From a virus: a DNA stretch of 64,000 nucleotides. Shown here piece by piece: positions 1,650 through 31,682 of this stretch. The DNA is taken from positions 60,689 to 124,688 of IMG/VR virus record IMGVR_UViG_3300032117_000009. One strand, written 5' to 3'. The stretch's first letter is position 1. The number at the start of each line of letters is the position of its first letter. Below the pieces are notes generated by a model that was not told the origin of the DNA, did no database searches, and worked only from the letters and a program-made list of their open reading frames with translations. The position numbers and the translations under genes were made by a program.

Positions 1650-3548
1650 TTACCAACTATAATTATCGTCGTAATCATCTTCATCGTCATCATCAGAATC
1701 ATCATCTTCTGTATATGAATCATATTCAGAGTCATCGTATTTTGATGAAGTAAACCAAGATGTTACATCTGGAAGTACAGCCTGCCCTTGTAATGAAGCT
1801 GGAAGCTGGGTTGTGCTTTGTTCGGTGCCTTTTGGTCCTTTTGGTCCTTCTTCAACATCTGCAACATTATTAGAAAGATCTTGTGGACCCATGCCTTCAC
1901 CAAAAACAGAACCTACACCTTCATAGTTTGTGTCTTCTATTTCAGCTAAAAACAACCTTGAAGCAAGTGTATCATGCGTAAAGAAACTATTTCCAGGTAT
2001 TGTCTCAGAAACTTCTTGTGGTTGGTTATCAACATCTTCACCAACTGTTTGGTTTGGAGCATCTACCCCAGAAAACTCTGGCCCAAGCTCTTTTGGTGAT
2101 AACCTATCTGCAATCTTTATATTACCGTTTTCATCAAAAGAATAAACTTTTGCTGTTTTAGTATTGTTATTCATATCGTAAAGATTTTTGTGGACATTTT
2201 CGATATCTTTTCTAGCTTTTTCAAAGCCTTTTTCACGACCTAAAAGACTATAAGCATGAACTGGTATTATATGTTCTTGTTGCCAACTATATCCTAAAAT
2301 ATTAGCATCATTATCATATAATGGTTTAACATACCTTTCTGCATGTAAATGGGAAGAATCAGGATCTATAAGACCATTTGACGTATCGTAAAAATTAGTA
2401 AAATTATAATCTGTATCACTATAATCCCTACGCTCTATTTCGTTTTTAGGAATTCCAAATTTGTTTATATGATAATTTATATATTTATCTGCCTGAGCAT
2501 TAGCTTCTTCTTCTGTTTTTGATATGCCGGTTATAGTATATAAATTATGTATTTCGTTTGGGTAGCCTTTCCATATCATTGCTTGTAATTTATGACCATT
2601 ACCTATATTAGCACTATGCTGATCTGGACGAGGGTAAAAATTATCCCAAGCTTCATCCCAAGAGCCTCCACGGTGTTCTTCAGCAAAATTTTCTCTATCT
2701 TCGTATGTTTTATGTAATAATGGTGGATAATAAAAATGATCTCTATCATTCCAATCTGAATAATGAGTACCCCACTCTTCTGGTTCCCATTCACCAGTTA
2801 TTTTATTGTAGCTAGCAAATTTATTATTTTTAGAAGAATTTATATCGTATAAATCTTTGTGGACACTTTCAATATCTTTTTTAGCTTGTGAATATAAATC
2901 ATCTATGTTATTTAAATAATCCTCATATTTATAATTATAATGTGATTGTTGCCAAGAATAACCAATATGTTTGCCATTATTATCTATTAATGGTTTTATA
3001 TCCCTAGTTACAATTTGCCAACCTGGGTCACTAGGTTTTTTGTTTTTATTGCGAAAATCTCTCATTTTATAATCATCAGGATGAGTGTAATTATCAATAT
3101 CATATTCACCATCATCATTAAAACGAGAATCAATTGGCAAAGTCATATTTCCTTTATCATTTTTTATTTCAATATCCTTATGGTTGATTCCAAATTTATT
3201 TAAATGATAATTTAAATATTTATCTGCTTGAGAATGTGCTTCTTTTTCTGTTTTCCCAATACCATAAATTATATATTGAGATTCTATTCCATCATTATTT
3301 TTAAATATTCTTGCCTGTAATTCATGCCCATTACCTATGCTTACAGATTTTTGTGATGGATCTGGATAAAGATTGTGCATAGCTTTAGTTACATCTTCAC
3401 GATTATTTTTTTCATAATCGTGCCAATCGCTATTGTTTTTAAAAATCGCAGGCGGATATAATTTTGTTCTAATATCAAAAGATGAATTGCCCCATTCTTC
3501 TGGGTACCATTCTCCAGTTATTTTGTCATATCCAGATTCTTTATGCAT
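1650..3548 (-). CDS. Modular protein: two copies of a GEWxPEEW-initiated domain plus acidic tail
   Basis: YDKITGEWYPEEWG and YNKITGEWEPEEWG begin two homologous units; a third copy is in 30642-31682; Asp-rich end DDSDDDDEDDYDDNYSW. Confidence 0.8.
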   Translation of the reverse strand: MHKESGYDKITGEWYPEEWGNSSFDIRTKLYPPAIFKNNSDWHDYEKNNREDVTKAMHNLYPDPSQKSVSIGNGHELQARIFKNNDGIESQYIIYGIGKTEKEAHSQADKYLNYHLNKFGINHKDIEIKNDKGNMTLPIDSRFNDDGEYDIDNYTHPDDYKMRDFRNKNKKPSDPGWQIVTRDIKPLIDNNGKHIGYSWQQSHYNYKYEDYLNNIDDLYSQAKKDIESVHKDLYDINSSKNNKFASYNKITGEWEPEEWGTHYSDWNDRDHFYYPPLLHKTYEDRENFAEEHRGGSWDEAWDNFYPRPDQHSANIGNGHKLQAMIWKGYPNEIHNLYTITGISKTEEEANAQADKYINYHINKFGIPKNEIERRDYSDTDYNFTNFYDTSNGLIDPDSSHLHAERYVKPLYDNDANILGYSWQQEHIIPVHAYSLLGREKGFEKARKDIENVHKNLYDMNNNTKTAKVYSFDENGNIKIADRLSPKELGPEFSGVDAPNQTVGEDVDNQPQEVSETIPGNSFFTHDTLASRLFLAEIEDTNYEGVGSVFGEGMGPQDLSNNVADVEEGPKGPKGTEQSTTQLPASLQGQAVLPDVTSWFTSSKYDDSEYDSYTEDDDSDDDDEDDYDDNYSW

Positions 3549-4023
3549 TTGGACTTAATAATCCTTGGATATACTGGCTACCCTCCCAATCAGAATGAGT
3601 AGCTGTATGAGCACCACCGGCAGCTCTATGATGATACGTACAGAGCCAACGGAAGTTATCTCCACTCTCTACCCATGCACCAACTTTATCTGGGTCAGAT
3701 ACACCTGGATAATCTTTTTCTAATGCTTTAAGAGACACACCATTTGTCAAAGCAAATTCGATATGTGTATGATGAAGTTCTAGTCCTTCTTGCTTAGCTT
3801 TTGGATCTTCTGGCGCAGGAACTGGATTACCTTTTTCATCCTTACAGTCACTAAACCCAACGTGGTCCCCAATGTAGCATCGAGCAGTTGGCCTGGTTCT
3901 CTCATGGTATGCATTAAAATCTTTGTAATGGGGATCATCCTTCCTTGGACCGTGGGCTGGGTAATGTACAATGTAAGAGTGATTCTCTGTTTGATCATGT
4001 GCTGGAGTAATCTTTTCAGTCAT
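3541..4023 (-). CDS. HNH-like His/Cys protein
   Basis: LELHH...NFRWLCTYHHR resembles the HNH beta-beta-alpha-metal motif. Confidence 0.5.
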   Translation of the reverse strand: MTEKITPAHDQTENHSYIVHYPAHGPRKDDPHYKDFNAYHERTRPTARCYIGDHVGFSDCKDEKGNPVPAPEDPKAKQEGLELHHTHIEFALTNGVSLKALEKDYPGVSDPDKVGAWVESGDNFRWLCTYHHRAAGGAHTATHSDWEGSQYIQGLLSPNA

Positions 4024-4345
4024 TGTCAGGTCCTTCTGTCAAATTTGGTATGTCGGGATGATGTTTAATAATATGATGTGATAAATTTGCATTTCTATCT
4101 AATTTATCGTGTAATTTGTTTAATTCTGCTTCTATCCAATAGCGAAGTGGAGGATAAATAAATGATGCTACGATAACAACTATTATCCATTGAACAAATG
4201 AAGCAACAAGATTTGGTCCAACCCTAGATGAATCAAGAGGCCAAAAATCTATTATAATTCTATTCGCAAACCAATCACTAAATATTGCAATTATAATAAA
4301 TAAAATAGTAAGTGATGAAGCTATTAAGAATGCTAATTTTTTCAT
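4016..4345 (-). CDS. Membrane protein, two predicted TM segments
   Basis: Hydrophobic stretches LAFLIASSLTILFIIIAIF and FVQWIIVVIVASFIY; ATG 2 nt after the upstream stop. Confidence 0.7.
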   Translation of the reverse strand: MKKLAFLIASSLTILFIIIAIFSDWFANRIIIDFWPLDSSRVGPNLVASFVQWIIVVIVASFIYPPLRYWIEAELNKLHDKLDRNANLSHHIIKHHPDIPNLTEGPDND

Positions 4346-4347
4346 AA

Positions 4348-6252
4348 TTACCAATTCTTTTTCTTTGGCGTAAATCTTTCTATGTGAGTTATGCGCTCAG
4401 GTGGGATAGGAGCTTTGGAAACAATTTCTTCTTTACCTATATCGGTAAAACCAGGTCTATCACTATGAAAATTATCTAAATCTACATGGTATAAATCAAA
4501 TTCTTGCGGAGCTGGCCTTCCACTTCTTTCATAAGTATGTTGAATATGATGTGCCCATATTTCTTTGTCTTCATCAGTTGGAGACATATATACATTTGCG
4601 CCAGGATCGATGTACCAATTGTGGTGTTCAATACCGAAAGTTTTCAAACCTTCTTGTTCAATTGATTCACGATTATGAGCAGGAGATACATGGTACGGAA
4701 GAGCTTCTTTGATAGAAGCTTCGACCTGAGGCCCAGTAATATTTGCTTGATCAATTATATATTGAGCGCCTTCAGGATCTTGTGCACCAGGAGCATGTAG
4801 ATTGCTATCTACTGGAGCATCATACCCTTGACCATTTACAGATGCCCAGAATTGCTTAATATGAGTAATCCTATCAGGTGTGATATGACCTTTGTAAACT
4901 ATTTCGTCAACACCCATGTCAGTTTTACGTTTTTCTACCGGAAGACCTTCTGTATTAACATGCCAAAGATCAAAACTATCTGCATCTTGTCGTTCTAAAT
5001 CTATATCTTCTAGATCTGGATACCCAATTGGATCATCAGAATTCCATCTATCCATTTCATGTCGTGATTTAATTTCTTGGCTATGTCTTTCATTACCTAT
5101 TTGATAACCCCAAAGATCTGCATCTTTATCAGTAGGAGACATATAAACTAATGGTTCTATACTAGATGGCCATTTATTTGATTCTTCAGTTCCTGGCAAT
5201 AAACCATTTTCTTCAATAGATTCTCTATGCTCAACTGGGGAAACATGATACGGAATAGCAGTTCTTAAAGAAGCAGTTCTTACATTTGATGGGTGAGTAA
5301 GGCCAATTTGAGTTGGAGTCATGTTTCCTGGGACATAACCAAATTGATCAGGTTCTACTCCAGGAAATTGTTTTGCCCAGCCTCTGCCTTTATAACCATG
5401 ATTATTAGATTCACCATATCTATAAACAGTTACTGGAACATGTGTAAGGCCAAGTTCTTTTGCAGCTATAATTCTATGGTTTCCTTCACCAAGATATGCA
5501 TATCTGTCATTCATATTATAGCTAACTTTTAATGGGTTGATAAAACCATTTTTCAGAAGTGAGCTTTTAATATTGTCTACTGTTGAACGACTATTACCAG
5601 TATCATAAATTGGGTCAAGACGATCAAATTCTCTAATTCTATGAACGTCTTCTAAAGGTACCCATTCAACCTTAACGTGGTTAGCATCACTTTTTTTATT
5701 TGCTTTTGTTAAAGCAATGATATTACTAGTTATATCATTAATAGAAGCATTTTTATTTAAATCTACGTGAAGATTACGAACAGTCTTTGCTTCGGATCTT
5801 GTAGATGCACTTTCTATAAAATAATTATTTAAAATTTTATCCTTGATATCATTTATTGATAAATCTTCTTTGTCAAGAGTAATAACAAAATTATTGCTAT
5901 CTTGCGGAGAAACAATAACAGGATTAAGATTATACCCCTGGAATTGAAGCATCAGGGATTGAATAATTGCTTGTTTGTTTTCTTCAATAATATAAGGAGA
6001 AAACTTACAATTATATTCTATTTTACCATTATCTTCTGTTTTTATAGTTTTAGGTCCATATCGAACATCATCAGTTCCAAGGCCTTTAATATCCCAAAAA
6101 TTGCCAGCATTCTTTTCCATCCACAAATCATGATGTTTTTGTGAACAAAAAACAAGCTCATCTAAACCATTTGAGGCTGTTAACCAATTCCAAGACGTTG
6201 AATTAGGATTTTTGCAATCAATATAATCACAATATATATTGTTAAGTGTCAT
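4348..6252 (-). CDS. Multidomain protein: N-terminal Zn finger, ParB/Srx-like domain, two tandem ADP-ribosyltransferase-fold domains
   Basis: CDYIDC..FCSQKH; IKSSLLKNGFINPL..LGEGNHRIIAAKELGLTHVPV (ParB-like); twice PYHVSP..RESIE.EGL..VYMS..EIV..I.P.RI (Tpt1/KptA/DarT-like ART fold). Confidence 0.75.
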   Translation of the reverse strand: MTLNNIYCDYIDCKNPNSTSWNWLTASNGLDELVFCSQKHHDLWMEKNAGNFWDIKGLGTDDVRYGPKTIKTEDNGKIEYNCKFSPYIIEENKQAIIQSLMLQFQGYNLNPVIVSPQDSNNFVITLDKEDLSINDIKDKILNNYFIESASTRSEAKTVRNLHVDLNKNASINDITSNIIALTKANKKSDANHVKVEWVPLEDVHRIREFDRLDPIYDTGNSRSTVDNIKSSLLKNGFINPLKVSYNMNDRYAYLGEGNHRIIAAKELGLTHVPVTVYRYGESNNHGYKGRGWAKQFPGVEPDQFGYVPGNMTPTQIGLTHPSNVRTASLRTAIPYHVSPVEHRESIEENGLLPGTEESNKWPSSIEPLVYMSPTDKDADLWGYQIGNERHSQEIKSRHEMDRWNSDDPIGYPDLEDIDLERQDADSFDLWHVNTEGLPVEKRKTDMGVDEIVYKGHITPDRITHIKQFWASVNGQGYDAPVDSNLHAPGAQDPEGAQYIIDQANITGPQVEASIKEALPYHVSPAHNRESIEQEGLKTFGIEHHNWYIDPGANVYMSPTDEDKEIWAHHIQHTYERSGRPAPQEFDLYHVDLDNFHSDRPGFTDIGKEEIVSKAPIPPERITHIERFTPKKKNW

Positions 6253-6329
6253 ATTTCCTCAAATTGGTGTGCCCCCTCTTATTTTTATTTAAAGAGTGTT
6301 ATTACACTATTGAGCTGATATATTCAACA

Positions 6330-7112: not shown

Positions 7113-7210
7113 CTTCAACCTTCTGATCTTGTGAAGAATCTTCTTTCTTCACCTTTTCAGAAACTAGTATAGTACCTTTATCTGGTGTTTTTGAGTATTT
7201 GTGCATGTTT

Positions 7211-7513: not shown

Positions 7514-7517
7514 AAAT

Positions 7518-7742: not shown

Positions 7743-7745
7743 ATT

Positions 7746-9089
7746 TTATTTCTTCCAATCGATTTTTATATAATCTCTACAATCTTCACACAGATTATAC
7801 CAGTCTTTTATTGGGTTTTTGTTATTATTGAAATATTCTTTGTTCATTGTATCATAATATTGCAATGAGCTTTTGTCACTTGGATGGTTGTAAATTTCTA
7901 ATGCTTTGTTGATAGGCACAGTTGGCTTTTGCTCATCCTCGTGCTCTTTAAGCTGCTCATCATAATCATCAATGTTGTTATTGCAAATTCTACAACGGTG
8001 GCGACAATTTTCACAATAATCACTTAAAGGATTGCCATACTTATCTTCATGTTCAGAAGCTTTTGCGTAGCTACCATTATCTATGTCTTTGATCTCTTCA
8101 TCGCAATCTATGCAATTCTTTCGGTGGCTTTCGCAATACTTTGAATCAGTATAGTCCTGATCTGAAATAGCGTCACCACACGTTTCACAATCTTTTCTGT
8201 GGTATTCACAAAGATCTGGGCCATATGGAAGAGCATCTCTTTCATCTTCTGAAAGCTCATCATAACAATCATTACAACATCTTCTGTGCTCTTCACAATA
8301 ATCATAATCTGGGTAATCTTCCTGGTCTTCAATAGAATGGCCACAATCTTGACAATATTTCCTATGATGTTGGCAATATACAGAATCTGGCCAATCCTCG
8401 TGGTCTTCAATATCTTCATTGCAATCTTCGCACTTTGGACGACAATTTCTGCAAAGATCTGAATTGGTATCGTGCTGATCGTAAACTTCTTTTCCACAAT
8501 TTTCACAAAGCTTACGGCAATTTTCACAATGATCAGACTCTGGGTAATCCTCTTGGTCTGCTATCTCATCTCCACATTCTTGACATTCTTTACGGCAATT
8601 TTCACAATATTTAGAATCAGTATCATTCTGATCTGTTATTTCTCTATCGCAATATTCGCAATGTTTACGACAATCTTCACAATATTTAGTACTTGGGTTT
8701 TCTTCAATATCATGGATTGGTTCATCGCAATAATTGCAGTATTTACGGCAATTCTTGCATTGCTTAGTTTCTGCACCAACATAATATAAATGGCTATCTT
8801 CTTTGCCCACATCATCTATTAAACCACGGCATTGATCGCAATAAAGCGTATGATCTGGACAACCTTCAGAACCTGGTATAGCATTTTCATTGCAGTACTT
8901 ACACTTAGAAATAACATTTTGTCTACAATCTCTACACATTCCGCTTGAATGGCCAAGATCTGATGTGCTTAATCTATCACCACAATTACTACATGATTCA
9001 TGATCATTAATAATTTTAGGATATGGGTGTTGCCAATTAGGTCTAGCTGTTTTGCTAAAAAATTCTTCTTGCGTCCAAAACTCTTCCAT
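7746..9089 (-). CDS. Tandem Zn-ribbon repeat protein (about 13 repeats of ~26 aa)
   Basis: Repeat CxxC..I.D..D.P.S.YCxx[CH]RK, e.g. HCEYCDREITDQNDTDSKYCENCRK; ends IDWKK. Confidence 0.85.
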   Translation of the reverse strand: MEEFWTQEEFFSKTARPNWQHPYPKIINDHESCSNCGDRLSTSDLGHSSGMCRDCRQNVISKCKYCNENAIPGSEGCPDHTLYCDQCRGLIDDVGKEDSHLYYVGAETKQCKNCRKYCNYCDEPIHDIEENPSTKYCEDCRKHCEYCDREITDQNDTDSKYCENCRKECQECGDEIADQEDYPESDHCENCRKLCENCGKEVYDQHDTNSDLCRNCRPKCEDCNEDIEDHEDWPDSVYCQHHRKYCQDCGHSIEDQEDYPDYDYCEEHRRCCNDCYDELSEDERDALPYGPDLCEYHRKDCETCGDAISDQDYTDSKYCESHRKNCIDCDEEIKDIDNGSYAKASEHEDKYGNPLSDYCENCRHRCRICNNNIDDYDEQLKEHEDEQKPTVPINKALEIYNHPSDKSSLQYYDTMNKEYFNNNKNPIKDWYNLCEDCRDYIKIDWKK

Positions 9090-9110: not shown

Positions 9111-9284
9111 TTATAACATAGATGAGTTGTTAGATGGTTTAGAAAAAGGTTCATCATAGCTCATGGTAAGCTTAACGAATTCGTTATATTCTTCTGGTTG
9201 GATTGGCATCCATATTCTACCGCAAAGACTACATATATAACAGCCAGCAAAATCTTGTTCTAAATTATGTTGATCACAAATCAT
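9111..9284 (-). CDS. Small Zn-finger protein (57 aa), below the ORF-track cutoff
   Basis: Translated by hand: MICDQHNLEQDFAGCYICSLCGRIW...; fills the gap between neighbours. Confidence 0.6.
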   Translation of the reverse strand: MICDQHNLEQDFAGCYICSLCGRIWMPIQPEEYNEFVKLTMSYDEPFSKPSNNSSML

Positions 9285-9849
9285 ACCATTCTACCTTGTT
9301 ATACCAACTTGATGTTCTATTGCGATTTTTAGCTCTCCAACTAGCGTTTGCTTTTGATTTGGCAACTTTACAAGGATCACATCTGCATCCAGCTTCATAA
9401 CCAGAAGTTTTCCCATGCCTTGGGTCATCATCATCTATGCCACGTTGTCTAATTTTCCTAACGCTTTCAACGGCAGCAGCTTGGCAAAGTCCACATCTAC
9501 AACCAATTCTATATCCATTTGTACTCCCATGTCTTGGGTCTTCAGGATCTAATGCCTTTAATATTGGCAATGGTGTTCTTAACTTATCTTCATCTACACC
9601 TGGGGTAATAGGCCCTTCTTTATCAATACCTTTAAGAGATCTTTGATAATAAGAAGATGCATCCCTGCATTTTCTACAACGACAATTCCCATATGTGTAC
9701 GCATAAATTTTGCCATGGTGTGTGCTGTCTACATAAAGTTTGCATTTTGGGCTTGGGCAATTACAATTTTCTCTAATATTAGGGTCTAATTCTTTTCCCC
9801 AAAACTCAGGGTTTTGAAAATTTATTTCAGCAATTTCATTATCGCCCAT
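9274..9849 (-). CDS. Protein with three HG-x-Y-x-CRCxxC Zn-binding repeats
   Basis: HHGKIYAYTYGNCRCRKC, RHGSTNGYRIGCRCGLC, RHGKTSGYEAGCRCDPC. Confidence 0.8.
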   Translation of the reverse strand: MGDNEIAEINFQNPEFWGKELDPNIRENCNCPSPKCKLYVDSTHHGKIYAYTYGNCRCRKCRDASSYYQRSLKGIDKEGPITPGVDEDKLRTPLPILKALDPEDPRHGSTNGYRIGCRCGLCQAAAVESVRKIRQRGIDDDDPRHGKTSGYEAGCRCDPCKVAKSKANASWRAKNRNRTSSWYNKVEWYDL

Positions 9850-11024
9850 TATTCGTTTCCTGAGTAATCATGAGGCTTTTGAAAAGGTCGAGCCTCTGGG
9901 TGGTTAGGGTTTATCTGCTGATAGGCCATATCGTTCGCCTGTGACGATATTTCAGAGCATGTGGGGCAATACGAATCCATGCGATTTGAAAGTGGTGTAC
10001 CGCAACTGAGGCACGTTCCACTAGGAGAAGCTAAATGTGTTGAATCTTTATTAGTTCCTAAATGTGTAAATTTATTTGAATTATTAATGTTTGAAAATAA
10101 ATTTTCAGAAATTATTTTTGACGAACTTCTACGTCTTTTTTCATTATCAACATATTGTTGTGCATCATGTTTGACAAAATGTTCTACTTCGTGATGAAAT
10201 TCATCTTGATTTGGTTTATAGATTTCTCCATCCCTATCTTGTAAATTAATCAAATCCATAGGGCCATATTTTTTATGATGAAGTTCAATAAATCCACCAT
10301 CAAAGTATCGGCCTTCCCAATCGCCTACTTTATGTGATACATATGGCTCATCATTTTCGTCTATCTGGATAGTATGATCAGGGAAACGCTTTTCAAATTC
10401 TGATACGGTATGCAATCGGAGCATAAGTTTTTGTGGGCCAAATATATGATCTATACCTTCCCAAAGATGTTCAGCGATAGCTTTACCAGCTATTTCACTT
10501 TGCTCACGCTTACTCAAACCAAAATCTTCATCATCAACTGATGCATACCATTTAGAAGCGTTTACAAGGTCCTTGCGCTTACGATATTCACGTTGCCAAG
10601 TATTATAAGCTTTTTTACAAGGATAACAACGACAACCTAGAGTTGTATAAGTAGCTACTTGACCATGGCGATTGTCATCGGCAGGAAGATTGTTTTGCTT
10701 TTTGTTTTCAGCTTCTTGGTATCGAGCACTTTTACAATCATCACAACGGCAATTCCAGTTGTAATAAGCATTTAGAGTTCCGTGGCGCTCGTCGCCTTCA
10801 GGGAGTGACAATGACTTACGACTATTGTTATATTGTCTTCTAGCATCTTTGCAGTCGTCACAACGACACTTTCCACCTTGATATCCAGGGAGTGTGCCAT
10901 GCTTTTCAGAATCTTTGTCTAAATTACAATTGCGGTTTGAACAACCACAAGCATAACGATCTCTATAGTATGATTCTATAGTAGGAGGTATATCATACCA
11001 CTCTTGATGATCGTCAATAGGCAT
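9849..11024 (-). CDS. Modular protein: three HG-x-Y-x-CRCxxC repeats, central unknown domain, C-terminal CxxC-CPTC ribbon
   Basis: KHGTLPGYQGGKCRCDDC, RHGTLNAYYNWNCRCDDC, RHGQVATYTTLGCRCYPC; linker NASKWYASV. Confidence 0.8.
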   Translation of the reverse strand: MPIDDHQEWYDIPPTIESYYRDRYACGCSNRNCNLDKDSEKHGTLPGYQGGKCRCDDCKDARRQYNNSRKSLSLPEGDERHGTLNAYYNWNCRCDDCKSARYQEAENKKQNNLPADDNRHGQVATYTTLGCRCYPCKKAYNTWQREYRKRKDLVNASKWYASVDDEDFGLSKREQSEIAGKAIAEHLWEGIDHIFGPQKLMLRLHTVSEFEKRFPDHTIQIDENDEPYVSHKVGDWEGRYFDGGFIELHHKKYGPMDLINLQDRDGEIYKPNQDEFHHEVEHFVKHDAQQYVDNEKRRRSSSKIISENLFSNINNSNKFTHLGTNKDSTHLASPSGTCLSCGTPLSNRMDSYCPTCSEISSQANDMAYQQINPNHPEARPFQKPHDYSGNE

Positions 11025-23312: not shown

Positions 23313-24057
23313 GGCAATCACAACCGCATGGTGGGCATGAACAATTACCGCCCTTGTCAAAGCGGTTACAGCTAGAAAGGTGGTCTATTTCAGGATAATA
23401 ATCATTGCAATTACAATTATGGCATAAATCATATGCACAATCTGGGCAATAGTCCTCAGACCCTTCATTTACCCATTCATTATATGGATCTAAACTGTTA
23501 TTATTTTTAGCACCACATCCATCACAAATAGTTAAAATGTGTAATTGCTTAGACGATTCTCTCCAAGAGTTCTGGTAATCATTGGTAAGCTCTGTACCAC
23601 CAGGTCCTTCGTTATCAATGTATCCACCGCAATCGGGGCACTCATTGTACTCATAAGCGTAATCAATGGCTTGCTTAGATATTTGATTCTTATCGCAATG
23701 TGGGCAAGTGTATGGTTCGCCAGCAGCAATCTTTACAGAAGCTGTATGGGTATCATCATCGTCATCTTTACGTACAATAGTAATTTTAGGCCACTTATGG
23801 CCATCAGAAGGCTTATCTGTGCCTTCAGGCCATTTTTGTGGAGCTGGATTAGGATTAGGAAATACTTCTGACCATGGGCCAGTCATCTTTTCATAATCCT
23901 GATCGTCAATATCCTTAAGACGATTAATCATATGATCAATTTCAGGATCAAATTGATTTTCTCCAGGGTGTGCTTGATTCATATGATCAGCACGCTCTTG
24001 TAACGTATATCCTGCCCAGTCACAATGGGAGCAGCCTAGCCCAGGCTCATACTCCAC
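23305..24057 (-). CDS. Modular protein: C2H2 finger plus several Zn ribbons
   Basis: CSHC...HMNQAH; CPHC..CPDC; CDGC..W..DYCPDC; linkers HTASVKIAA and NSWRESSKQL. Confidence 0.8.
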   Translation of the reverse strand: MEYEPGLGCSHCDWAGYTLQERADHMNQAHPGENQFDPEIDHMINRLKDIDDQDYEKMTGPWSEVFPNPNPAPQKWPEGTDKPSDGHKWPKITIVRKDDDDDTHTASVKIAAGEPYTCPHCDKNQISKQAIDYAYEYNECPDCGGYIDNEGPGGTELTNDYQNSWRESSKQLHILTICDGCGAKNNNSLDPYNEWVNEGSEDYCPDCAYDLCHNCNCNDYYPEIDHLSSCNRFDKGGNCSCPPCGCDCHV

Positions 24058-24893: not shown

Positions 24894-24995
24894 TCTATTC
24901 TCCTTGGACAGGCAAAAATCTTGGCACCAATGATTTCTATTACAAAGGACGACTTGTTGATAATTTTAGTTGAAATTCGCTTAAAATGCTAGTTT

Positions 24996-25526
24996 CTATG
25001 ACCAATCAATATTATTGTATGGGTTCATGCATTTGATGGCTTGCTTATGGCCTTTAGTTATAGCATCAGGAACTATTTTCTCAACAAACTTATGTTTTTT
25101 CATATAAGCGTCAACAGCTTCAGGGTTATCAATGTTGTTAGGTTGCTCTTGAAGCATTTTGTAATAAAGATTTTTGCTTGCTTTAGAAAGTTCGTGACCT
25201 ATGTGATCAACCAGGTGATTACCACTTAATGATTTTCCGTCTAATCCCCATTTATGGTCTTCTGCATATTCAATGTCTTCTGGTGAAAATGAACGTAATA
25301 TTTCTTCAACGTCATTGTTATTAATACACCAATTATTATGACATCCATCAAATGGTGTATTACGCCCTAACCCACGTCTTAAATCTATTGGGTTATCACA
25401 TCTTCCACATGTTTCTTCATATTTGTGAACAACTCTGCCATGGTAACTATTGTACTCAAATGGCATATCGTCGTAATCACTATCTTTGTAGTTTATACAA
25501 TTTGGAATTTCATTCCATAAACCCAT
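24996..25526 (-). CDS. Hypothetical protein with CGRC...C...WC motif
   Basis: ORF; start moved to the ATG 1 nt after the upstream stop; ends NPYNNIDWS. Confidence 0.7.
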   Translation of the reverse strand: MGLWNEIPNCINYKDSDYDDMPFEYNSYHGRVVHKYEETCGRCDNPIDLRRGLGRNTPFDGCHNNWCINNNDVEEILRSFSPEDIEYAEDHKWGLDGKSLSGNHLVDHIGHELSKASKNLYYKMLQEQPNNIDNPEAVDAYMKKHKFVEKIVPDAITKGHKQAIKCMNPYNNIDWS

Positions 25527-25527
25527 G

Positions 25528-26040
25528 TTACCAAAGCTCCCCATCATCAGAAATCTTGAGCTTGTTGAGTCTTCCTCTTGACATATCCCATGGATTGTTA
25601 TACCCTAGGTCCCTTTTCTCATTTCTGTCCCATACCATTTTGTTTTCTGGTCTATATGGGTAAACATCATCATGTGGGCTAAAGAATGTATAGTTTTGTT
25701 CATTACAGGGTATATTCCCACAAACAAACATACCATGTTTACGATGAAATGCTTCTAGCTCATCATTGTCGTTTAAATCTTTGATTTCATGGATATCTTT
25801 TGGATGGCTACCCAGAGAACCACGATAAAAATCATTTATATATTCATTGCGTTCATGTTCGTTATACCCTTGGAAATTATCCTGTTTGTGTGCAATATAT
25901 TCATCAATTGGCACTGGTGATACTGTTGAGCATCCACACTGAGGGCAATTAATCTTTTTACCACTCTCGCTATACCAATTATCTGACCAGTTGCCACCCT
26001 GGTTATTAAGCGCCCAATCGCCAATTTCCATTTTTTGCAT
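25528..26040 (-). CDS. Zn-ribbon protein (CPQC...CGNIPC)
   Basis: Split CxxC pairs; ends DDGELW. Confidence 0.7.
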   Translation of the reverse strand: MQKMEIGDWALNNQGGNWSDNWYSESGKKINCPQCGCSTVSPVPIDEYIAHKQDNFQGYNEHERNEYINDFYRGSLGSHPKDIHEIKDLNDNDELEAFHRKHGMFVCGNIPCNEQNYTFFSPHDDVYPYRPENKMVWDRNEKRDLGYNNPWDMSRGRLNKLKISDDGELW

Positions 26041-26042
26041 GA

Positions 26043-26951
26043 TCAACCTATCCTAAAGTCCATACCAGACCAGTGGGAACAAACATCACAATCGCATTTC
26101 TTCCCATGACGAATTAAACCAGGTGCATAATCTTGCACATCAAGGATACGCCCATTACTACCAAGAGTATAGATACGCTTCGATTGCTTAAAACGATCTT
26201 CCCATATGTTAGCGTCTTCTGAAAGTTTATTTTCCATATTCTGGTGAGCATGCTCTTTAGTTATGTTGGCGTAATCAATAATTTTGCTCTTAGCCTCTTC
26301 TGCACTTGTTGTATCATCACCAAGATTAGTCCTAGCAATTGCAGGAGACAATATACCAGCATGCTCTACTCTTGGAAAAAATGTGCAATCAGTTGAGCTA
26401 GGATTATTTGCATTCTCTGATGGGTGAAAAGTATATGTTGGAGCAAAATTTCCATTGTTATCACCAATTTTCAATGGCTCTTCTTCAAAAATTCCACCAC
26501 CGAACATTTTTCCCATATGTTCTTTCCAGCTGTCAAGGGCTTCATCGTTGTCAACAGACTCAGGAAACTTCTGAGTATGCGAGAATTGATAGAAATGGTG
26601 ATCTCCACCTTCTTTTTCAGATGGAATAGTGATATGCCATCCTGTGGCTACATTGAATGGCAAGCTACTTGGGCTGAGGTCATGACCATCATGCTCGTCA
26701 AAACCAGGTACATGAAGCTGCTCAATATTTAATTTTTTATTATTGATCTCTGAATCCATGATTGGGTGTCGGTCAACTGCATGGAAATGAGGGTCATGTA
26801 TTGCGCCATCGCATGAAAAAAATGGCCCACGCTTCTGTTTTAACTCTTCTGGGTCAAGAATTTCTTTTCCGGTCTTTAAATCTCTGTTATTAACTGGTTT
26901 GTACGGCTCATAATAACTATCATCAGTAGCTGCGATGACGTATTGGCTCAT
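26043..26951 (-). CDS. RGPFFSC-domain protein, paralog 1
   Basis: Shares RGPFFSC, PHFH.VD.HP, LNI.Q.HVPG.D.HDG, TGWHI, EALD.WKE with 26954-27826. Confidence 0.75.
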   Translation of the reverse strand: MSQYVIAATDDSYYEPYKPVNNRDLKTGKEILDPEELKQKRGPFFSCDGAIHDPHFHAVDRHPIMDSEINNKKLNIEQLHVPGFDEHDGHDLSPSSLPFNVATGWHITIPSEKEGGDHHFYQFSHTQKFPESVDNDEALDSWKEHMGKMFGGGIFEEEPLKIGDNNGNFAPTYTFHPSENANNPSSTDCTFFPRVEHAGILSPAIARTNLGDDTTSAEEAKSKIIDYANITKEHAHQNMENKLSEDANIWEDRFKQSKRIYTLGSNGRILDVQDYAPGLIRHGKKCDCDVCSHWSGMDFRIG

Positions 26952-26953
26952 TA

Positions 26954-27826
26954 TTAATACCGGCCCTTATTCTTCTTAGAATTCTTATACAGCTCTTCCC
27001 AAATGTCAGGGTTTTCCTCTGACTTTTTGTAATTCTGTATAATACTATTCATATCTAGCTTGTCAGCATAGTTTAACAGAGAATTCTGTGATTCTGAAGA
27101 ATTATTGTGGCCTTCAAATATTTTTGTACGTGAGAAAGAAGGACGAATTCTGCTCTTCATTTGTTTAGATGGGTGGAATACGATACTGTAAGCCTTTTCA
27201 CCTGGCTTTAAACCAAAAGGAACTTGTTGCTGTTGCTTTTGTTGCTCTTGTTGCTGTTCTTGCTCTTGTTGCTTTTCTTGCTCTTGTTGCTCTTGTTGCT
27301 CTTGCTCTTCTGGCTCTTGTTCTGGATCTTGTTCTTGCTCTTCACGCTCTTTTGGCTGTTCTTTGCCAGGAAGAAAGTCATAAACAATATCGCTAGGGTC
27401 TTTTGCATTATCAGCTGGACGCTTAATGAATGCACCAGGACCGTGTACGTTAGTACACTCTTCCTTCCACAGGTCTAAAGCTTCATTAGCGTCTGTTGTG
27501 GTACTATACTTCTTTGTGGCTGAGAGTTGAGTGATATGTGAATTTGTATTTGGCTCAATGATGTGCCAACCAGTGATAATGTGGTATGGAGGCATAGTTG
27601 AGAAATTAGTTTTTACGTTGCCATCATGCTGGTCATAACCAGGAACGTGCATTTGACGAATATTCAAACCCTCATTGTTCTCAATGTCTGGGTGACCATC
27701 TACTACGTGGAAGTGTGGGGTTTCCTTTTTCCCATAACAAGAGAAGAAAGGACCTCTCCCACTACTTGCTGGTGCATAAGGCTGTTCATCGCCATCATCA
27801 GATGCATATACGTAATGTAAACTCAT
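26954..27826 (-). CDS. RGPFFSC-domain protein, paralog 2, with Gln/Glu-rich insertion
   Basis: Tandem paralog of 26043-26951; EQEQQEQQEQEKQQEQEQQQEQQKQQQQ insert. Confidence 0.75.
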   Translation of the reverse strand: MSLHYVYASDDGDEQPYAPASSGRGPFFSCYGKKETPHFHVVDGHPDIENNEGLNIRQMHVPGYDQHDGNVKTNFSTMPPYHIITGWHIIEPNTNSHITQLSATKKYSTTTDANEALDLWKEECTNVHGPGAFIKRPADNAKDPSDIVYDFLPGKEQPKEREEQEQDPEQEPEEQEQQEQQEQEKQQEQEQQQEQQKQQQQVPFGLKPGEKAYSIVFHPSKQMKSRIRPSFSRTKIFEGHNNSSESQNSLLNYADKLDMNSIIQNYKKSEENPDIWEELYKNSKKNKGRY

Positions 27827-28323
27827 TGATCATACCATTCTTTTTGAGCTTTTTTAATATTTTTCCATTGAACATCATGAAGTCGGTGGCGAACTTCACC
27901 ATTTCTTATGTCTTTTTTAATTTTTTTGATTTTCCACCATTTTAACATCTGATGATGTTTGTTGTCTGGGTCGTCAGGATCTACTGATCTTCCCTTATCT
28001 GATAAATCTACGAGCTTTTCTTTTGAAATAACGTAAATATATCCGTGATAACCGACTTCTTGGAACTTGCCTTTGAACAATCCAGCAGGAAGTTTGCGCC
28101 CAGTTTCTTCTTCCCACTCTCTCACTGCTGCTTGGAACGGGTCTTCACCCTTTTTTACATGCCCACCAGGAAATTCCCATACTCCTGGGCTGTTCAATGG
28201 AAGCTCAGAGTGTGACCTTCTCTTAAGCAATAGAACATTACCAGTGTCCTCTGCTTTTACACAGAGTCCAGCTAGAACATCAGTATCATCAGGTGCTTTG
28301 AGTGCGTATCTCATATCAATCAA
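27823..28323 (-). CDS. NUDIX hydrolase
   Basis: Intact Nudix box GGHVKKGEDPFQAAVREWEEETG preceded by VLLLKRR...WEFPGG. Confidence 0.92.
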   Translation of the reverse strand: MIDMRYALKAPDDTDVLAGLCVKAEDTGNVLLLKRRSHSELPLNSPGVWEFPGGHVKKGEDPFQAAVREWEEETGRKLPAGLFKGKFQEVGYHGYIYVISKEKLVDLSDKGRSVDPDDPDNKHHQMLKWWKIKKIKKDIRNGEVRHRLHDVQWKNIKKAQKEWYDQ

Positions 28324-28690: not shown

Positions 28691-29463
28691 TATATTCTTC
28701 CCTTAGTCTCATGCCATGGACCCCAATGACCATGATGCTGGATAAGATTTCTTAGCTCTTCCTGCCCATAACGCTTTTCCACAACTGGATTGAAGAAAGC
28801 TTCAAATATTTCTCTTGGAAACGTTTCATCAGTAGTTGGCTCATGAATAGTTCCATCTGAATGTTCTACCCAACCGTGAGCTAATGGTGGGCTTCCCATA
28901 CCTTGGATAGTGCCATGAACTAATACTGCTCCTGGGTCACCACCAAATATTGCTCTTCTACCAGAAAGCTGGAAACATCGCCCCATTCTTCCTTCCATCG
29001 TTGAATCATCTTCGTAATTTTCATCATCTTTATCTTCATCCCAATCTTTTGAAGCGCCGTGAAGATTGAACTCAAGCTGATCTGGGTTAGGGCATTCTCC
29101 ACAGTAACATTTGTCTGGGTAATTGCATACTTTATCTATGCCTGGGTCTTTAAGAGGCATTATTTTTTGTATTGTCATTTTACTTAAAGGAGCTAGGCCT
29201 TTAGGTGGCGACCAATATTTATTGTTTGTTTCGTCATACTCACCTTCATACCAATTATCAAAACAATTATGACATGTAAATTGAGGTTCTTGCCTATTTA
29301 AATCACCATAAGCATCTTTATATGCTTTCATACACGCTTCGTCATCTACAAAAATATTTTTCCATTGATACCCATGTGGTTCTATTTGTTCAACATTATC
29401 AAAACCACAGTCTGGGCATGTAAGAATAGCACTTTTTTCTTTAGGATAGCGCATCATAATCAA
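28690..29463 (-). CDS. Zn ribbon fused to a transglutaminase/papain-like Cys-His domain
   Basis: CPDC..CHNC; C-terminal GRCFQLS...LVHG...AHGWVE...IHEPT. Confidence 0.55.
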   Translation of the reverse strand: MIMMRYPKEKSAILTCPDCGFDNVEQIEPHGYQWKNIFVDDEACMKAYKDAYGDLNRQEPQFTCHNCFDNWYEGEYDETNNKYWSPPKGLAPLSKMTIQKIMPLKDPGIDKVCNYPDKCYCGECPNPDQLEFNLHGASKDWDEDKDDENYEDDSTMEGRMGRCFQLSGRRAIFGGDPGAVLVHGTIQGMGSPPLAHGWVEHSDGTIHEPTTDETFPREIFEAFFNPVVEKRYGQEELRNLIQHHGHWGPWHETKGRI

Positions 29464-30638
29464 TAAAACTCTCTCGAAGAAGATTTCCAGTCAATTTCAC
29501 TGTATGGGTTGTACCCAGGAGCGCACTTGTACATATTGGCTTTTGTATTGAGCAAAGTCTTATTTACGTCTTCTACACTAAAATCATCTTTGGTAAGTGC
29601 AAGGTTTGTAATGTCATTAGCAAAATGGTATGCTTCATGATCGTTTAAATCGTATTTGCCTGAGTAATCTTCGTAATGATTAGCAATTCCACTAGCTACG
29701 TATCGTGCATCTTTATCATGAGCTTTTAAAACGTCATCATGAGTAACAACAGGCCCTCTAGCATATGCATAGTCACCTACATTAATTCCTTTATCATGGG
29801 CATCTAAAATTTCATTTTTATTAAGATTAGAATTTTTGGCATATGCATAATCACTTAAATCAATACCTTTATTATGAGCTTCTAAAAGTTCATTATGATT
29901 AATATCAGAGTCTCTAGCATGTACATAATCATATAAATTAACACCATTATAATGAGCTGCTAAAATTTCTGCGTTACTAGGCTTAGTATATATTGGGGTT
30001 TCTTCCAAAGGATTGTTCTCCGAGTTTGGTATTACTTTTTCAGAAGCTTCAAAATACCATGGTGTGTTTATTTTTACATTATCTATCAAAGAACTATAAT
30101 TACCTTCTACAAATTGATCATCAGATATTTGACGTAGGTGTGGGCAATGTATTCTTACTAAACGCATGCATTCTTTATGATATGGCAATGTATCGCTTCC
30201 AAACTCACCAGATCCAGCTGATCCATAATAGTCTTCTTTATCTGGTTGCCAAGCTACTGCTTTATCATTGTCTTCAAATCTATCACCGCACATAGGGCAA
30301 CATCTTTTATCTATGGATTGCATAACTGAATTATCTAGTTCGTCTTTGGCAAAATTTGGTATATCTTGTGCATCAACTCTTGTGCTATTCCATGGCATTG
30401 GAATTCTTTTAAATAATTTGCGGTCACCTATCTCATAACCCATTCCTTCATTTTTGGGTGTTAAGCGATCATATATTTGATTTTTTTCACGAGTCTTCAC
30501 GTAAGGCCTTGGCAAGCCTATTACTTCTGGACCTTTTGGACTAAATTCTTGTGCTTTAGCTGCAATATGCAACATGTGACTAGGACCACTACAAAATAAG
30601 CAATCTGAGTATGTAGCTGATTCATGGTACCATGCCAT
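29460..30638 (-). CDS. Modular protein: PMPW...CPHL Zn domain plus three ~26-aa helical repeats
   Basis: Paralog of 15402-16040; repeats DY..A.....H.E.L.AH.KGI; ends NPYSEIDWKSSSREFY. Confidence 0.8.
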   Translation of the reverse strand: MAWYHESATYSDCLFCSGPSHMLHIAAKAQEFSPKGPEVIGLPRPYVKTREKNQIYDRLTPKNEGMGYEIGDRKLFKRIPMPWNSTRVDAQDIPNFAKDELDNSVMQSIDKRCCPMCGDRFEDNDKAVAWQPDKEDYYGSAGSGEFGSDTLPYHKECMRLVRIHCPHLRQISDDQFVEGNYSSLIDNVKINTPWYFEASEKVIPNSENNPLEETPIYTKPSNAEILAAHYNGVNLYDYVHARDSDINHNELLEAHNKGIDLSDYAYAKNSNLNKNEILDAHDKGINVGDYAYARGPVVTHDDVLKAHDKDARYVASGIANHYEDYSGKYDLNDHEAYHFANDITNLALTKDDFSVEDVNKTLLNTKANMYKCAPGYNPYSEIDWKSSSREFY

Positions 30639-30641
30639 TAG

Positions 30642-31682
30642 TTATCTATCATACCAATTCTTAGATGAGAACATAGGCTTTTGTCCACCAAGAGTATTAT
30701 TATTTCTGTCATAAAGGAATTTATGCATATGTTCTATATGTTTTTTGACAGTATCAACATCATTTTCACCTTCTACATAATCAATGGGTAAAAAATGAGC
30801 TTGTGACCAAGAAACACCTATTTGATTCCCATGTTTATCGTTAATTGGTTCATGATGAAAAACTACATGCCCGTTATCATATGAAGCATGATACGTTGCA
30901 TTATGCAAATCTTCATATTTTTTTGCTTCTGTTTTAGCTTCATCTAAATTTTTTGATCTTCCATATATGTCATACATACCCGTAAAATTATCTGTTCTCC
31001 CCTCTGGGTGTTCATGCTCTATGTGTCCAGAAAAAAGATGACCTTTCCCAATATTTGTAGCACTATTAGGTTCAGTTACATTAATAGAATTATCAATGCC
31101 ATTTTCATTATATGGTGGATAATTCATAAAAGATATTTCATGATATGGTTCATGTGACCATTCTTCTGGCTTCCATTCGCCAGTTGTTTTATTGTATGCA
31201 GCTTCATGATACCAATTCATTGATGACTCTTTTTCTTTACCATACTTTCCGCCACGCTTCTTGTATTCTTTAACAACCCAAGCATTAGCTACGGCAGAAG
31301 GATATACATCAAACTTTTGCTTGGCCTCAGACTTAACTTTAGAATATAATTCTTTGTCTGTTGGGTCGCCCTTACGATGTTTGATGATATGATCGTAATC
31401 TTTTTTGTTTTTACCAGAATATTTACCTATACTGCCTTGATAAAGATCACAATCACAATGTTTACACTCTGACCAACCATCATCTAACGTAGTATGGTCC
31501 TCGTCATCGTGACCACATCCACATAGGCCACAAGCATGGAACTCAGTATCTGGGTGATACTCAGTACCACAATGATTACATGCTATGTCGCCATTACCTT
31601 TGAGTCTAAATTGATTTGATAGATCATTAAAAAGATGTTCTGAAAAATCATGATTGTCCTTATCAGCGTAGTAATAACCCAT
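30642..31682 (-). CDS. Modular protein: Zn ribbon, PSA(V/Y)...RGG.Y domain, GEWxPEEW domain
   Basis: CNHC..CGLC..CKHCDC; PTDKELYSKVKSEAKQKFDVYPSAVANAWVVKEYKKRGGKY; linker KESSMNWYHEAA then YNKTTGEWKPEEW. Confidence 0.8.
   Translation of the reverse strand: MGYYYADKDNHDFSEHLFNDLSNQFRLKGNGDIACNHCGTEYHPDTEFHACGLCGCGHDDEDHTTLDDGWSECKHCDCDLYQGSIGKYSGKNKKDYDHIIKHRKGDPTDKELYSKVKSEAKQKFDVYPSAVANAWVVKEYKKRGGKYGKEKESSMNWYHEAAYNKTTGEWKPEEWSHEPYHEISFMNYPPYNENGIDNSINVTEPNSATNIGKGHLFSGHIEHEHPEGRTDNFTGMYDIYGRSKNLDEAKTEAKKYEDLHNATYHASYDNGHVVFHHEPINDKHGNQIGVSWSQAHFLPIDYVEGENDVDTVKKHIEHMHKFLYDRNNNTLGGQKPMFSSKNWYDR

What the first reader, a model, noticed from the sequence alone, without database searches (positions are those of the whole stretch)
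1650..31682. A ~30-kb co-oriented block of about 32 genes shares one peptide grammar at domain boundaries
Seen: unrelated domains across the block are repeatedly preceded by [AS]S-x(1-4)-[KRH/aromatic]-x-A. Examples: RTASLRTAI and EASIKEAL (before each ART domain), HTASVKIAA, KEASLVTKAI, AASKEAF, NSSVRQAM, NASKWYASV, SASKKLAS, INSMFYAN, KESSMNWYHEAA. Three Trp-containing upstream linker types recur: AWGFDKKAS, NPY..IDWK[KS]S and D.WE.[KR]F[KI].S. The three copies of the GEWxPEEW domain all begin at the same residue immediately after such a tag (HKESG|Y, NKFAS|Y, YHEAA|Y), which fixes the boundary precisely. I did not notice this grammar in the replication genes at 43.8-63.9 kb. Inference: a genome-encoded addressing and processing system in which any domain flanked by these tags is packaged into the head and/or cleaved out, giving the phage a large, evolvable payload. 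This is the best candidate for an undescribed system in the window.
Basis: partly seen in the sequence, partly recalled or inferred. Interest (0 to 1): 0.88.

Follow-up and report, generated by a model that had tools for sequence, protein, structure and literature searches.

The report
Junction peptides marking phage cargo-like modules
A 30-kb run of phage genes beside the head-assembly genes encodes bead-like, mostly zinc-binding protein modules joined and capped by the same short peptides, which resemble the likely cutting sites of the head protease, so the phage may load and cut up a large, fast-evolving protein payload in its capsid; this rests on sequence evidence only.

Summary
The window is the second half of a 124.7-kb actinophage genome whose head module resembles that of Bxz1-like phages. 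The block has 29 co-oriented ORFs and is 3.6-fold richer in Cys than the other genes.

It carries two recurrent elements. One is a Trp-centred cap at module ends: Trp lies in the last 5 residues of 12/29 block proteins against 2.8 expected. The other is basic-x-Ala-Ser/Thr: 20 found against 5.1 expected, with no excess in tail or early genes.

Internal copies fall where orthologous genes in six syntenic metagenome loci begin or end, so they mark real module boundaries. The same basic-x-Ala element is conserved after the capsid protein's variable N-terminal leader, and in the scaffold and portal, across about 70 related phages. The head protease has the assemblin/T4 gp21 fold.

Best reading (about 0.45): block proteins are prohead cargo cut at these sites. 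Packaging itself is untested. The Trp cap has no demonstrated role, and my attempt to link it to the protease C-terminus failed a structural check. Half of the block proteins lack the site. If true, this is a new variant of known head-cargo systems.

The parts
1650..31682 (-). Block of 29 co-oriented ORFs (9,591 aa). Cys is 3.6x, His 2.8x and Asp 1.6x the level in the rest of the proteome.
19611..23360 (-). Beads-on-a-string protein (1249 aa from TTG; 1233 aa as called in the database). It has 12 Cys-rich modules of 53-145 aa, each ending Y-x-x-A-W-G-F. The ORF stops directly after the last W-G-F.
22947..22982 (-). junction 1 (Trp cap + K-K-A-S)
22596..22631 (-). junction 2
22332..22367 (-). 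junction 3 (translation checked)
22173..22208 (-). junction 4
21855..21890 (-). junction 5
21420..21455 (-). junction 6
21180..21212 (-). junction 7 (W-G-L-K-K-A variant). It precedes the non-Cys segment that is invariant in all homologues.
20841..20876 (-). junction 8
20523..20558 (-). junction 9
20238..20273 (-). junction 10
19881..19916 (-). junction 11
19614..19634 (-). terminal half-junction: the protein ends at W-G-F
18001..19614 (-). 537-aa Cys-rich protein. It has one W-G-F-D-K-K junction (18436-18474), an N-terminal R-Y-A-S site (19537-19557) and Trp next to the C-end.
16046..18010 (-). 654-aa protein. Its internal N-P-Y..I-D-W-K-K-S junction (17237-17284) is where the orthologous genes of L004, L005 and L008 start.
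13975..15399 (-). 474-aa protein. It has two D-x-W-E-x-K-F junctions (14869-14907, 14284-14370) and a conserved F-D-x-F-D-x-x-W-N-S tail (13978-14007).
13218..13940 (-). Best-conserved block protein (79-84% identity in relatives, 46% in distant phages without the block). It ends N-W-F and has K-L-A-S and K-T-A-T sites.
9849..11024 (-). 391-aa protein with G-C-R-C repeats. The L005 orthologue starts at its internal K-W-Y-A-S junction (10521-10604).
9274..9849 (-). 191-aa G-C-R-C-repeat protein with a double W-Y tail (9277-9315)
7746..9089 (-). 447-aa protein, 10.7% Cys, tail I-D-W-K-K (7749-7772)
4348..6252 (-). An R-T-A-S site (5257-5286) and an A-S-I-K-E-A tag (4699-4725) precede those domains. 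The protein ends in Trp.
1650..3548 (-). 632-aa protein with two G-E-W-x-P-E-E-W domains. A K-F-A-S site (2808-2828) lies before the second. It has an acidic tail ending in Trp (1653-1679).
30642..31682 (-). 346-aa protein: Zn ribbon, DUF5872 and a G-E-W domain. The L007 orthologue ends at its internal N-W-Y-H-E-A-A junction (31194-31286). Tail N-W-Y-D-R (30645-30668).
29460..30638 (-). 392-aa protein that starts M-A-W-Y-H-E-S-A (30612-30638) and has an N-P-Y..I-D-W-K tail (29463-29510)
27823..28323 (-). NUDIX hydrolase with an appended K-E-W-Y tail (27826-27852). This is an unrelated fold carrying the same cap.
26043..27826 (-). Two paralogous proteins (302 and 290 aa) with Y-V-x-A-[AS]-x-D-D heads and D-x-W-E-[DE]-x-[FY]-K tails
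24996..26046 (-). Two small Cys-containing proteins ending in Trp tails
31685..32419 (-). Papain-like peptidase (phrog_19005) directly upstream of the block, in conserved synteny. It may be a lysin rather than a processing enzyme.

Best explanation
The block is a lineage-specific expansion of modular, mostly Cys/His-rich (zinc-ribbon-like) proteins. It lies just upstream, in the direction of transcription, of the head-assembly genes of a freshwater-type actinophage related to Bxz1-like phages.

Modules are delimited by two short elements. The first is a Trp-centred cap at the C-terminal end of a module, of the forms Y-x-[DN]-A-W-G-F, N-P-[WY]-x-x-hydrophobic, or K-x-W-[YF]. The second is a basic-x-Ala-Ser/Thr element just before the next module, or about 11-25 residues from a protein's N-terminus.

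The second element is most likely the cleavage site of the phage's assemblin-fold head maturation protease. That would make the block proteins prohead cargo that is cut into single modules inside the capsid, like T4 internal proteins and Alt or the SPN3US ejection proteins.

The Trp cap would then be a docking element or an extended recognition determinant. Because cutting yields the same products either way, fusing or splitting genes at these peptides is nearly neutral. That would explain the rampant module shuffling.

Shown: the motifs, their enrichment and conservation, their coincidence with gene boundaries, the protease fold, and the genomic position. Inferred: cleavage, packaging, and the role of Trp.
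For: 1. [KR]-x-A-[ST] counts against per-protein shuffles:
- block 20 against 5.1 +/- 2.2
- block without the 1249-aa protein 12 against 4.4 +/- 2.1
- pre-portal genes 7 against 1.3
- head core 9 against 2.9
- tail genes 11 against 9.0
- early genes 6 against 8.2
The excess is repeated in relatives L004, L005 and L007 (z 5.2-7.8). It is also seen in the head region of a distant phage that lacks the block (z 4.2 against 0.6 for the rest of its genome).

2. Clade-wide conserved sites. In the capsid protein, P-R-[TV]-A follows a leader of variable length and sequence. The scaffold has several K/R-x-A-S sites at homologous positions. The portal has K-K-T-A-S.

3. The protease matches phrog_18299 (E 4.5e-27). 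Its AF2 model has pLDDT 89.8 and matches T4 gp21 (Z 10.6) and herpesvirus proteases (Z 8-10). His79 and Ser137 are invariant and His163 nearly so. Herpes assemblins cut at Ala|Ser (my own knowledge).

4. In homologues of the bead protein the modules are reordered, yet the junctions are kept. K-K-A-[ST] persists even where Trp is replaced, and every N-terminus carries a short leader ending in basic-x-Ala-[ST]. Codons at the junctions differ, so selection acts on the protein.

5. Internal junctions coincide with gene boundaries in relatives in at least three proteins.

6. Ala at the block sites is kept in 18/23 orthologue instances, against 52% for all Ala in the same alignments.

7. Trp followed within 10 residues by the site is enriched outside the bead protein too: 4 against 0.8 in the window, and 4-6 against about 0.5 in L004, L005 and L007.

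8. Block-type proteins continue to within 4 kb of the portal gene.

9. Precedents: T4 CTS/gp21 and SPN3US (PMC7411985), P1 Dar (PMC9024508), polyvalent proteins (PMC5512222).
Against: - There are no data on virion content or processing.
- The site pattern came from first-stage notes on this same genome, so it was not chosen blind.
- Sixteen of 31 ORFs in or next to the block have no [KR]-x-A-[ST] site, including all of 24996-31682.
- Relative L008 shows no enrichment (z 0.5) and distant phage G003 no contrast between head region and the rest.
- Sites lie in the first 62 residues only weakly more often than expected (6/13, p 0.048).
- The Trp cap is absent from the capsid, scaffold and portal sites, so it is not needed for the supposed cleavage.
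- The protease's similar C-terminal peptide is a confident core beta-strand. A matrix built from distant protease C-termini does not detect the block motifs.
- The block proteins are acidic and metal-binding, unlike classical basic internal proteins.
- One copy of each protein already amounts to about 1.1 MDa.
Confidence: 0.45

Rival explanations
1. The peptides are lineage-specific linkers and caps of an expanding family of modular zinc-binding proteins that act in the cytoplasm, for example in host takeover or counter-defence. They are conserved for folding or spacing, and nothing is cleaved or packaged.
For: - The W-G-F form is confined to two adjacent homologous genes.
- The acidic stretch ending in Trp is predicted helical and may pack on its module, though the model is weak (pLDDT 62).
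- The module family is very narrow: 17 cluster representatives among 1.84 billion proteins.
- Half of the block proteins have no basic-x-Ala-Ser site.
- L008 is not enriched.
Against: - Trp caps sit on unrelated folds: NUDIX, DUF5872, the G-E-W domain and Zn ribbons.
- The junctions are better conserved than the modules they join.
- The basic-x-Ala element is shared with head proteins of phages that lack the block.
Confidence: 0.3
2. The Trp caps are short linear motifs that dock many different proteins onto one partner other than the capsid. That partner could be a host hub protein or a conserved phage protein such as the product of 13218-13940.
For: - C-terminal Trp tails are conserved in orthologues and occur on unrelated domains.
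- The bead protein is multivalent.
- 13218-13940 is by far the best-conserved block protein.
Against: - No partner has been identified.
- This reading does not explain the basic-x-Ala-Ser element or its sharing with head proteins.
Confidence: 0.15
3. The block proteins are polyproteins cut in the cytoplasm by the papain-like peptidase encoded directly upstream (31685-32419).
For: - The peptidase is placed before the block in conserved synteny (L007, 85% identity).
- It has Cys and His motifs.
- It has a weak Peptidase_C39_2 hit, and some clusters of atlas neighbours carry Peptidase_C1.
Against: - Homologues occur in phages without the block and in unrelated 50-kb phages. In one of these the homologue lies next to an amidase, which fits a lysin role.
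- This reading does not explain the shared sites in the capsid, scaffold and portal proteins.
Confidence: 0.07
4. The pattern is chance, composition, or a by-product of gene overlap and ribosome-binding sites.
For: Absolute counts outside the bead protein are small.
Against: - Shuffles that keep each protein's composition never reach the observed counts.
- The controls (tail and early genes) are flat.
- Trp codons at gene ends form no consistent Shine-Dalgarno-like sequence, and several are followed by gaps of 20-627 nt.
- Junction codons vary synonymously.
Confidence: 0.03

Closest known systems
T4 internal proteins IPI-III and Alt, with a capsid targeting sequence cut by gp21 (PMC7411985, PMC9024508)
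   Same: Accessory proteins, encoded apart from the core structural genes, would enter the prohead and be trimmed by an assemblin-fold protease at a short consensus. The protease model matches gp21 at Z 10.6.
   Different: The T4 tag is a single N-terminal propeptide cut at Leu/Ile-x-Glu. Here the candidate site is basic-x-Ala-Ser/Thr and occurs up to 12 times inside one protein. There is also an extra C-terminal Trp cap. The payload is about 30 kb of genes.
Ejection proteins of the giant phage SPN3US and phiKZ-like phages, cut by the prohead protease gp245 (PMC7411985)
   Same: A large set of head proteins carries propeptides that the prohead protease removes at a shared motif.
   Different: Those phages have long N-terminal propeptides and proteomic proof. 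Here there are multi-module polyproteins, Cys-rich modules and no proteomics.
Polyvalent proteins of phages and conjugative elements (Iyer et al. 2017, PMC5512222)
   Same: These are multi-domain conflict proteins encoded next to head genes and predicted to be packaged and proteolytically released. The block contains a protein with a ParB-like domain.
   Different: Polyvalent proteins carry their own peptidase domains and well-known effector domains. Here most modules are unknown Zn-ribbon-like units, no embedded peptidase was found, and a repeated junction peptide is the hallmark.
Herpesvirus assemblin maturation and release sites (Ala|Ser)
   Same: The protease fold is the same (Z 8-10), with Ala at the putative P1 position and Ser at P1'.
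   Different: The basic P3 position is inferred only from conservation. That herpes proteases cut at Ala|Ser is my own knowledge and was not tested here.
Bxz1-like mycobacteriophage gp96 (phage Wally)
   Same: The protease domain is 50% identical. In Wally it is fused to about 1,150 further residues and sits next to a 1,271-aa multidomain protein, so this lineage does attach extra domains to head-assembly proteins.
   Different: Wally has no Cys-rich bead modules, no W-G-F junctions, and only two [KR]-x-A-[ST] sites in gp96.
Encapsulin cargo-loading peptides
   Same: Short C-terminal peptides on unrelated enzymes address them to the inside of an HK97-fold shell.
   Different: This is an analogy recalled from memory. 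No sequence similarity exists and no binding was tested.

Membership tests
Head cargo processed by the prohead protease (T4 IP/Alt type) | Protein present inside the mature capsid | not testable with these tools
   No proteomics exists for this uncultured phage.
Head cargo processed by the prohead protease (T4 IP/Alt type) | Carries the same cleavage consensus as the bona fide head substrates (capsid protein, scaffold, portal) | tested here: inconclusive
   [KR]-x-A-[ST] is enriched in the block and the head genes only, and is conserved in head proteins across the clade. However, the real cleavage sites are unknown and half of the block proteins lack the motif.
Head cargo processed by the prohead protease (T4 IP/Alt type) | A targeting peptide sufficient for encapsidation | not testable with these tools
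   Trp caps are candidates only. The similar protease C-terminus is predicted to be part of the fold.
Head cargo processed by the prohead protease (T4 IP/Alt type) | Genes linked to the head module | tested here: met
   The block and two further block-type genes run up to about 4 kb from the portal gene, interrupted only by tRNA, HNH and Dps-like genes.
Assemblin / T4 gp21 prohead proteases (the 219-aa protein at G000 49515-50174) | Assemblin fold with a His-Ser-His catalytic set | tested here: met
   phrog_18299, E 4.5e-27. AF2 pLDDT 89.8. Matches 5jbl at Z 10.6 and herpes proteases at Z 8-10. His79 and Ser137 are invariant and His163 nearly invariant.
Polyvalent proteins (Iyer et al. 2017) | Several recognised effector domains in one polypeptide | tested here: inconclusive
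   Only a ParB-like domain was found (PHROG E 3.4e-9; the Pfam score is below its cut-off) in 4348-6252. The ART label has no Pfam or PDB sequence match.
Polyvalent proteins (Iyer et al. 2017) | Embedded processing peptidase domain | tested here: inconclusive
   Pfam and PHROG scans of all large block proteins found none. Remote folds were not examined.
DUF5872 (PF19197) | Score above Pfam's gathering threshold | tested here: met
   30642-31682 scores 41.0 bits against a cut-off of 27.5, over residues 107-181. The match spans the internal W-Y junction.

The most novel reading that the evidence does not exclude
A group of freshwater actinophages has evolved a general cargo grammar: a C-terminal Trp cap as address, plus basic-x-Ala|Ser as the head-protease cut site. 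Any domain could then be recruited, fused, split and shuffled as capsid payload. That would yield about 10,000 residues of rapidly evolving, mostly zinc-binding proteins delivered with the DNA.
Probability: 0.3. Interest if true: 0.85.

Novelty: new variant of a known kind. Interest (0 to 1): 0.6.

Why it matters
Packaged and injected phage proteins are first-strike weapons against host defences, and they are also tools for protein delivery. Known systems use one N-terminal tag per protein.

This would be a system in which dozens of unrelated modules share portable junction peptides and are released from polyproteins by the head protease. It would show how a phage can evolve a large payload by simple gene fusion and fission. 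It would also give a compact, testable tag for loading foreign proteins into an HK97-type capsid.

Finally, it would assign a biological context to about a quarter of the genome of an abundant, uncultured group of freshwater phages.

Tried and rejected
- **Close relatives.** A near-identity search of the phage collection found nothing. IMG/VR held no relative of the bead protein and no match to a back-translated junction pattern.
- **Module structure.** AF2 of one module with a 15-row alignment gave pLDDT 62. That is too weak to say whether the Trp is buried.
- **Protease C-terminus as a free capsid-targeting peptide.** Its sequence matches the block consensus at 5 of 7 positions, with chance 0.047 anywhere in the non-block proteome, and the peptide is conserved in about 90 homologues. 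But the model places it as a confident last beta-strand that aligns with the herpes protease core. A matrix built from distant protease C-termini finds no block motif. Phages with the same protease peptide lack the block. I no longer count this as support.
- **Dps-like protein.** Its C-terminus in distant relatives resembles the motif, but I believe this is the usual end of the Dps fold (my memory), so I dropped it.
- **DNA-level repeat or recombination linker.** Rejected, because the junction codons differ.
- **Shine-Dalgarno or gene-overlap origin of the C-terminal Trp.** Rejected.
- **Promoter and terminator scans.** Counts were at shuffle level, so they are uninformative.
- **ART assignment.** No Pfam or PDB sequence match.
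- **Other look-ups.** The protein atlas gave nothing for 13218-13940. A look-up of earlier findings in related genomes was empty.

Full report
**Context.** The window is bases 60689-124688 of a 124,688-bp virus record. 149 of its 161 ORFs lie on the minus strand. The DnaE-type polymerase is about 33% identical to those of Gordonia and Rhodococcus myophages. The head protease is 50% identical to that of Bxz1-like mycobacteriophages. G+C is about 36%. I infer an actinophage of a low-GC, probably freshwater, host. All relatives come from metagenomes.

In transcription order the genome reads as follows:
- replication genes;
- small genes;
- a papain-like peptidase (31685-32419);
- the block (31682 down to 1650);
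- a membrane protein;
- a Dps-like protein;
- HNH nucleases and seven tRNAs;
- two more block-type Cys-rich proteins and four small proteins;
- portal, protease, scaffold-like protein, cement protein and major capsid protein.

**The observation.** In the rest of the proteome it occurs 22 times against 18.0 +/- 4.3. Since the regex was fitted by eye, I looked for simpler features.

The block is compositionally distinct, with Cys at 3.9% against 1.1% and His at 4.3% against 1.5%. Pfam and PHROGs recognise little in it:
- a NUDIX hydrolase;
- an RNase H-like exonuclease;
- DUF5872;
- a ParB-like domain.

Listing every Trp in its context showed that the recurrent peptides are centred on Trp and tend to sit at the very end of proteins. 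Trp lies in the last five residues of 12/29 block ORFs against 15/120 others (Fisher p 8e-4). Shuffles gave 2.8 +/- 1.6 and never more than 9.

**The bead protein.** ORF 19611-23360 consists of 12 modules of 53-145 residues. Each ends Y-x-x-A-W-G-F and is followed by D-K-K-A-S, and the protein stops exactly after the last W-G-F. Codons for the same residues differ among copies, so the constraint acts on the protein and not on the DNA.

Eight homologues of 825-1292 aa exist in 5.8 billion clustered proteins. A profile of the module finds only 17 cluster representatives among 1.84 billion. In the homologues the modules are reordered, gained and lost, while the junctions persist. In the most divergent homologue Trp is replaced, yet K-K-A-S is kept. 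All N-termini carry a short leader ending in basic-x-Ala-Ser/Thr, at the same distance from the first Cys as after a junction. Junctions that are better conserved than the domains they join are unusual for a repeat protein.

**Boundaries are real.** A metagenome scan returned six syntenic loci, L004-L009, and the block order is conserved in them. Three internal peptides of window proteins coincide with gene ends or starts in relatives:
- The L007 orthologue of 30642-31682 ends at the internal W-Y junction.
- The L005 orthologue of 9849-11024 starts at the K-W-Y-A-S junction.
- The L004, L005 and L008 orthologues of 16046-18010 start just after the N-P-Y..I-D-W-K-K-S junction.

C-terminal Trp tails are conserved in orthologues and are frequent in the relatives, with Trp in the last five residues of 26 of 75 ORFs. 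They occur on unrelated folds such as NUDIX and DUF5872. Proteins often also begin with the second half of a junction, for example M-A-W-Y-H-E-S-A. Genes have therefore been repeatedly fused and split at these peptides.

**The link to head maturation.** An earlier first-stage note on the neighbouring window proposed basic-x-Ala|Ser sites in head proteins, and I tested this. Counts of [KR]-x-A-[ST] against per-protein shuffles:

| Gene set | Observed | Expected |
|---|---|---|
| Block | 20 | 5.1 +/- 2.2 |
| Block without the bead protein | 12 | 4.4 +/- 2.1 |
| Pre-portal genes | 7 | 1.3 |
| Head core | 9 | 2.9 |
| Tail genes | 11 | 9.0 |
| Early genes | 6 | 8.2 |

Even the bare [KR]-x-A shows this contrast. 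The enrichment recurs in L004, L005 and L007 (z 5.2-7.8) but not in L008 (z 0.5). In a distant phage without the block it is confined to the head region (z 4.2 against 0.6). A second distant phage shows no contrast.

In 71 IMG/VR loci carrying the protease, three sets of sites are conserved:
- The capsid protein always has P-R-[TV]-A followed by basic residues, after an N-terminal leader of variable length and sequence.
- The scaffold keeps several K/R-x-A-S sites at homologous positions.
- The portal keeps K-K-T-A-S.

This is what maturation sites look like. The 219-aa protein between portal and scaffold is a head maturation protease (phrog_18299). Its model (pLDDT 89.8) matches T4 gp21 (Z 10.6) and herpesvirus proteases (Z 8-10). 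Within the block, the site's Ala is retained in 18/23 orthologue instances against 52% for all Ala. Trp followed within ten residues by the site is enriched also outside the bead protein.

**What failed.** The protease ends in a peptide that matches the block junction at five of seven positions (chance 0.047), and this peptide is conserved in about 90 homologues. I first read it as a capsid-targeting tail shared with the cargo. I recall such a targeting role for the HK97 protease C-terminus (Duda et al. 2013), though I could not read that paper here. A similar role is proposed for the SPN3US protease C-terminal propeptide (PMC7411985).

The model contradicts that reading. It places the peptide as a confident terminal beta-strand that aligns with the core of herpes proteases. 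A matrix built from distant protease C-termini does not detect block motifs. Phages with the same protease peptide have no block. The Trp cap therefore has no established role.

The papain-like peptidase upstream is also a weak candidate for processing. Its homologues occur in phages without the block and, in one record, next to an amidase.

**Conclusion.** The most economical reading is that the block encodes prohead cargo cut by the head protease at basic-x-Ala-Ser/Thr, with Trp caps as docking or recognition elements. I put this at about 0.45.

The main rival, at about 0.3, is that these are merely family-specific linkers of cytoplasmic zinc-binding proteins. Under that reading the shared basic-x-Ala excess would have another cause.

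The concept itself is known from T4, SPN3US, P1 Dar and the polyvalent proteins (PMC7411985, PMC9024508, PMC5512222). Three things would be new: the repeated internal junctions, the C-terminal Trp caps, and the scale of the payload.

Noticed in passing
window 538-613 (-), and G000 59403-61301 (locus L013 4403-6301): A cluster of seven tRNA genes (Ile-tat, Ser, Tyr, His, Pro, Asn, Thr) with HNH-type nuclease ORFs lies between the block and the pre-portal genes. His, Tyr and Asn are over-used in the block.
   Followed up: partly
G000 50879-54400 (locus L012 10879-14400, -): The portal ORF is 1173 aa, whereas many relatives have about 780 aa. Residues around 276-527 hit helicase, primase and terminase PHROGs. 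This suggests an inserted element, possibly an intein, that is present in only some relatives.
   Followed up: no
window 809-1288 (-): A phage-encoded Dps/ferritin-like protein (Pfam Ferritin, E 3.5e-18) lies next to the block. In distant relatives it is adjacent to the orthologue of 13218-13940.
   Followed up: partly
window 9274-11024 (-): Two proteins carry repeated H-G-x-x-x-G-Y-x-x-G-C-R-C-x-x-C units. I recall this repeat type from actinobacterial and actinophage proteins. No Pfam match was found.
   Followed up: no
The label remains unverified. The ParB-like part is supported only by PHROGs.
   Followed up: partly
window 26954-27826 (-): A long Gln/Glu low-complexity insert (about residues 160-200) is present in one of two paralogues and absent from the other.
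   Followed up: no
window 34000-38000: G+C rises to 0.45-0.46 against about 0.36 in the block, in a run of small genes upstream of the peptidase.
   Followed up: no
locus L101 (Mycobacterium phage Wally, gp95-gp96): In Bxz1-like phages the homologous protease is the N-terminal domain of a 1,370-aa protein. The gene before it encodes a 1,271-aa protein with a LysM-like segment. Both are annotated as hypothetical.
   Followed up: partly
window 11808-12065 (-): This 85-aa ORF, with a K-H-L-K-H-L repeat and Lys/Ser/Gln-rich low complexity, overlaps neighbouring ORFs and may not be a gene.
   Followed up: no
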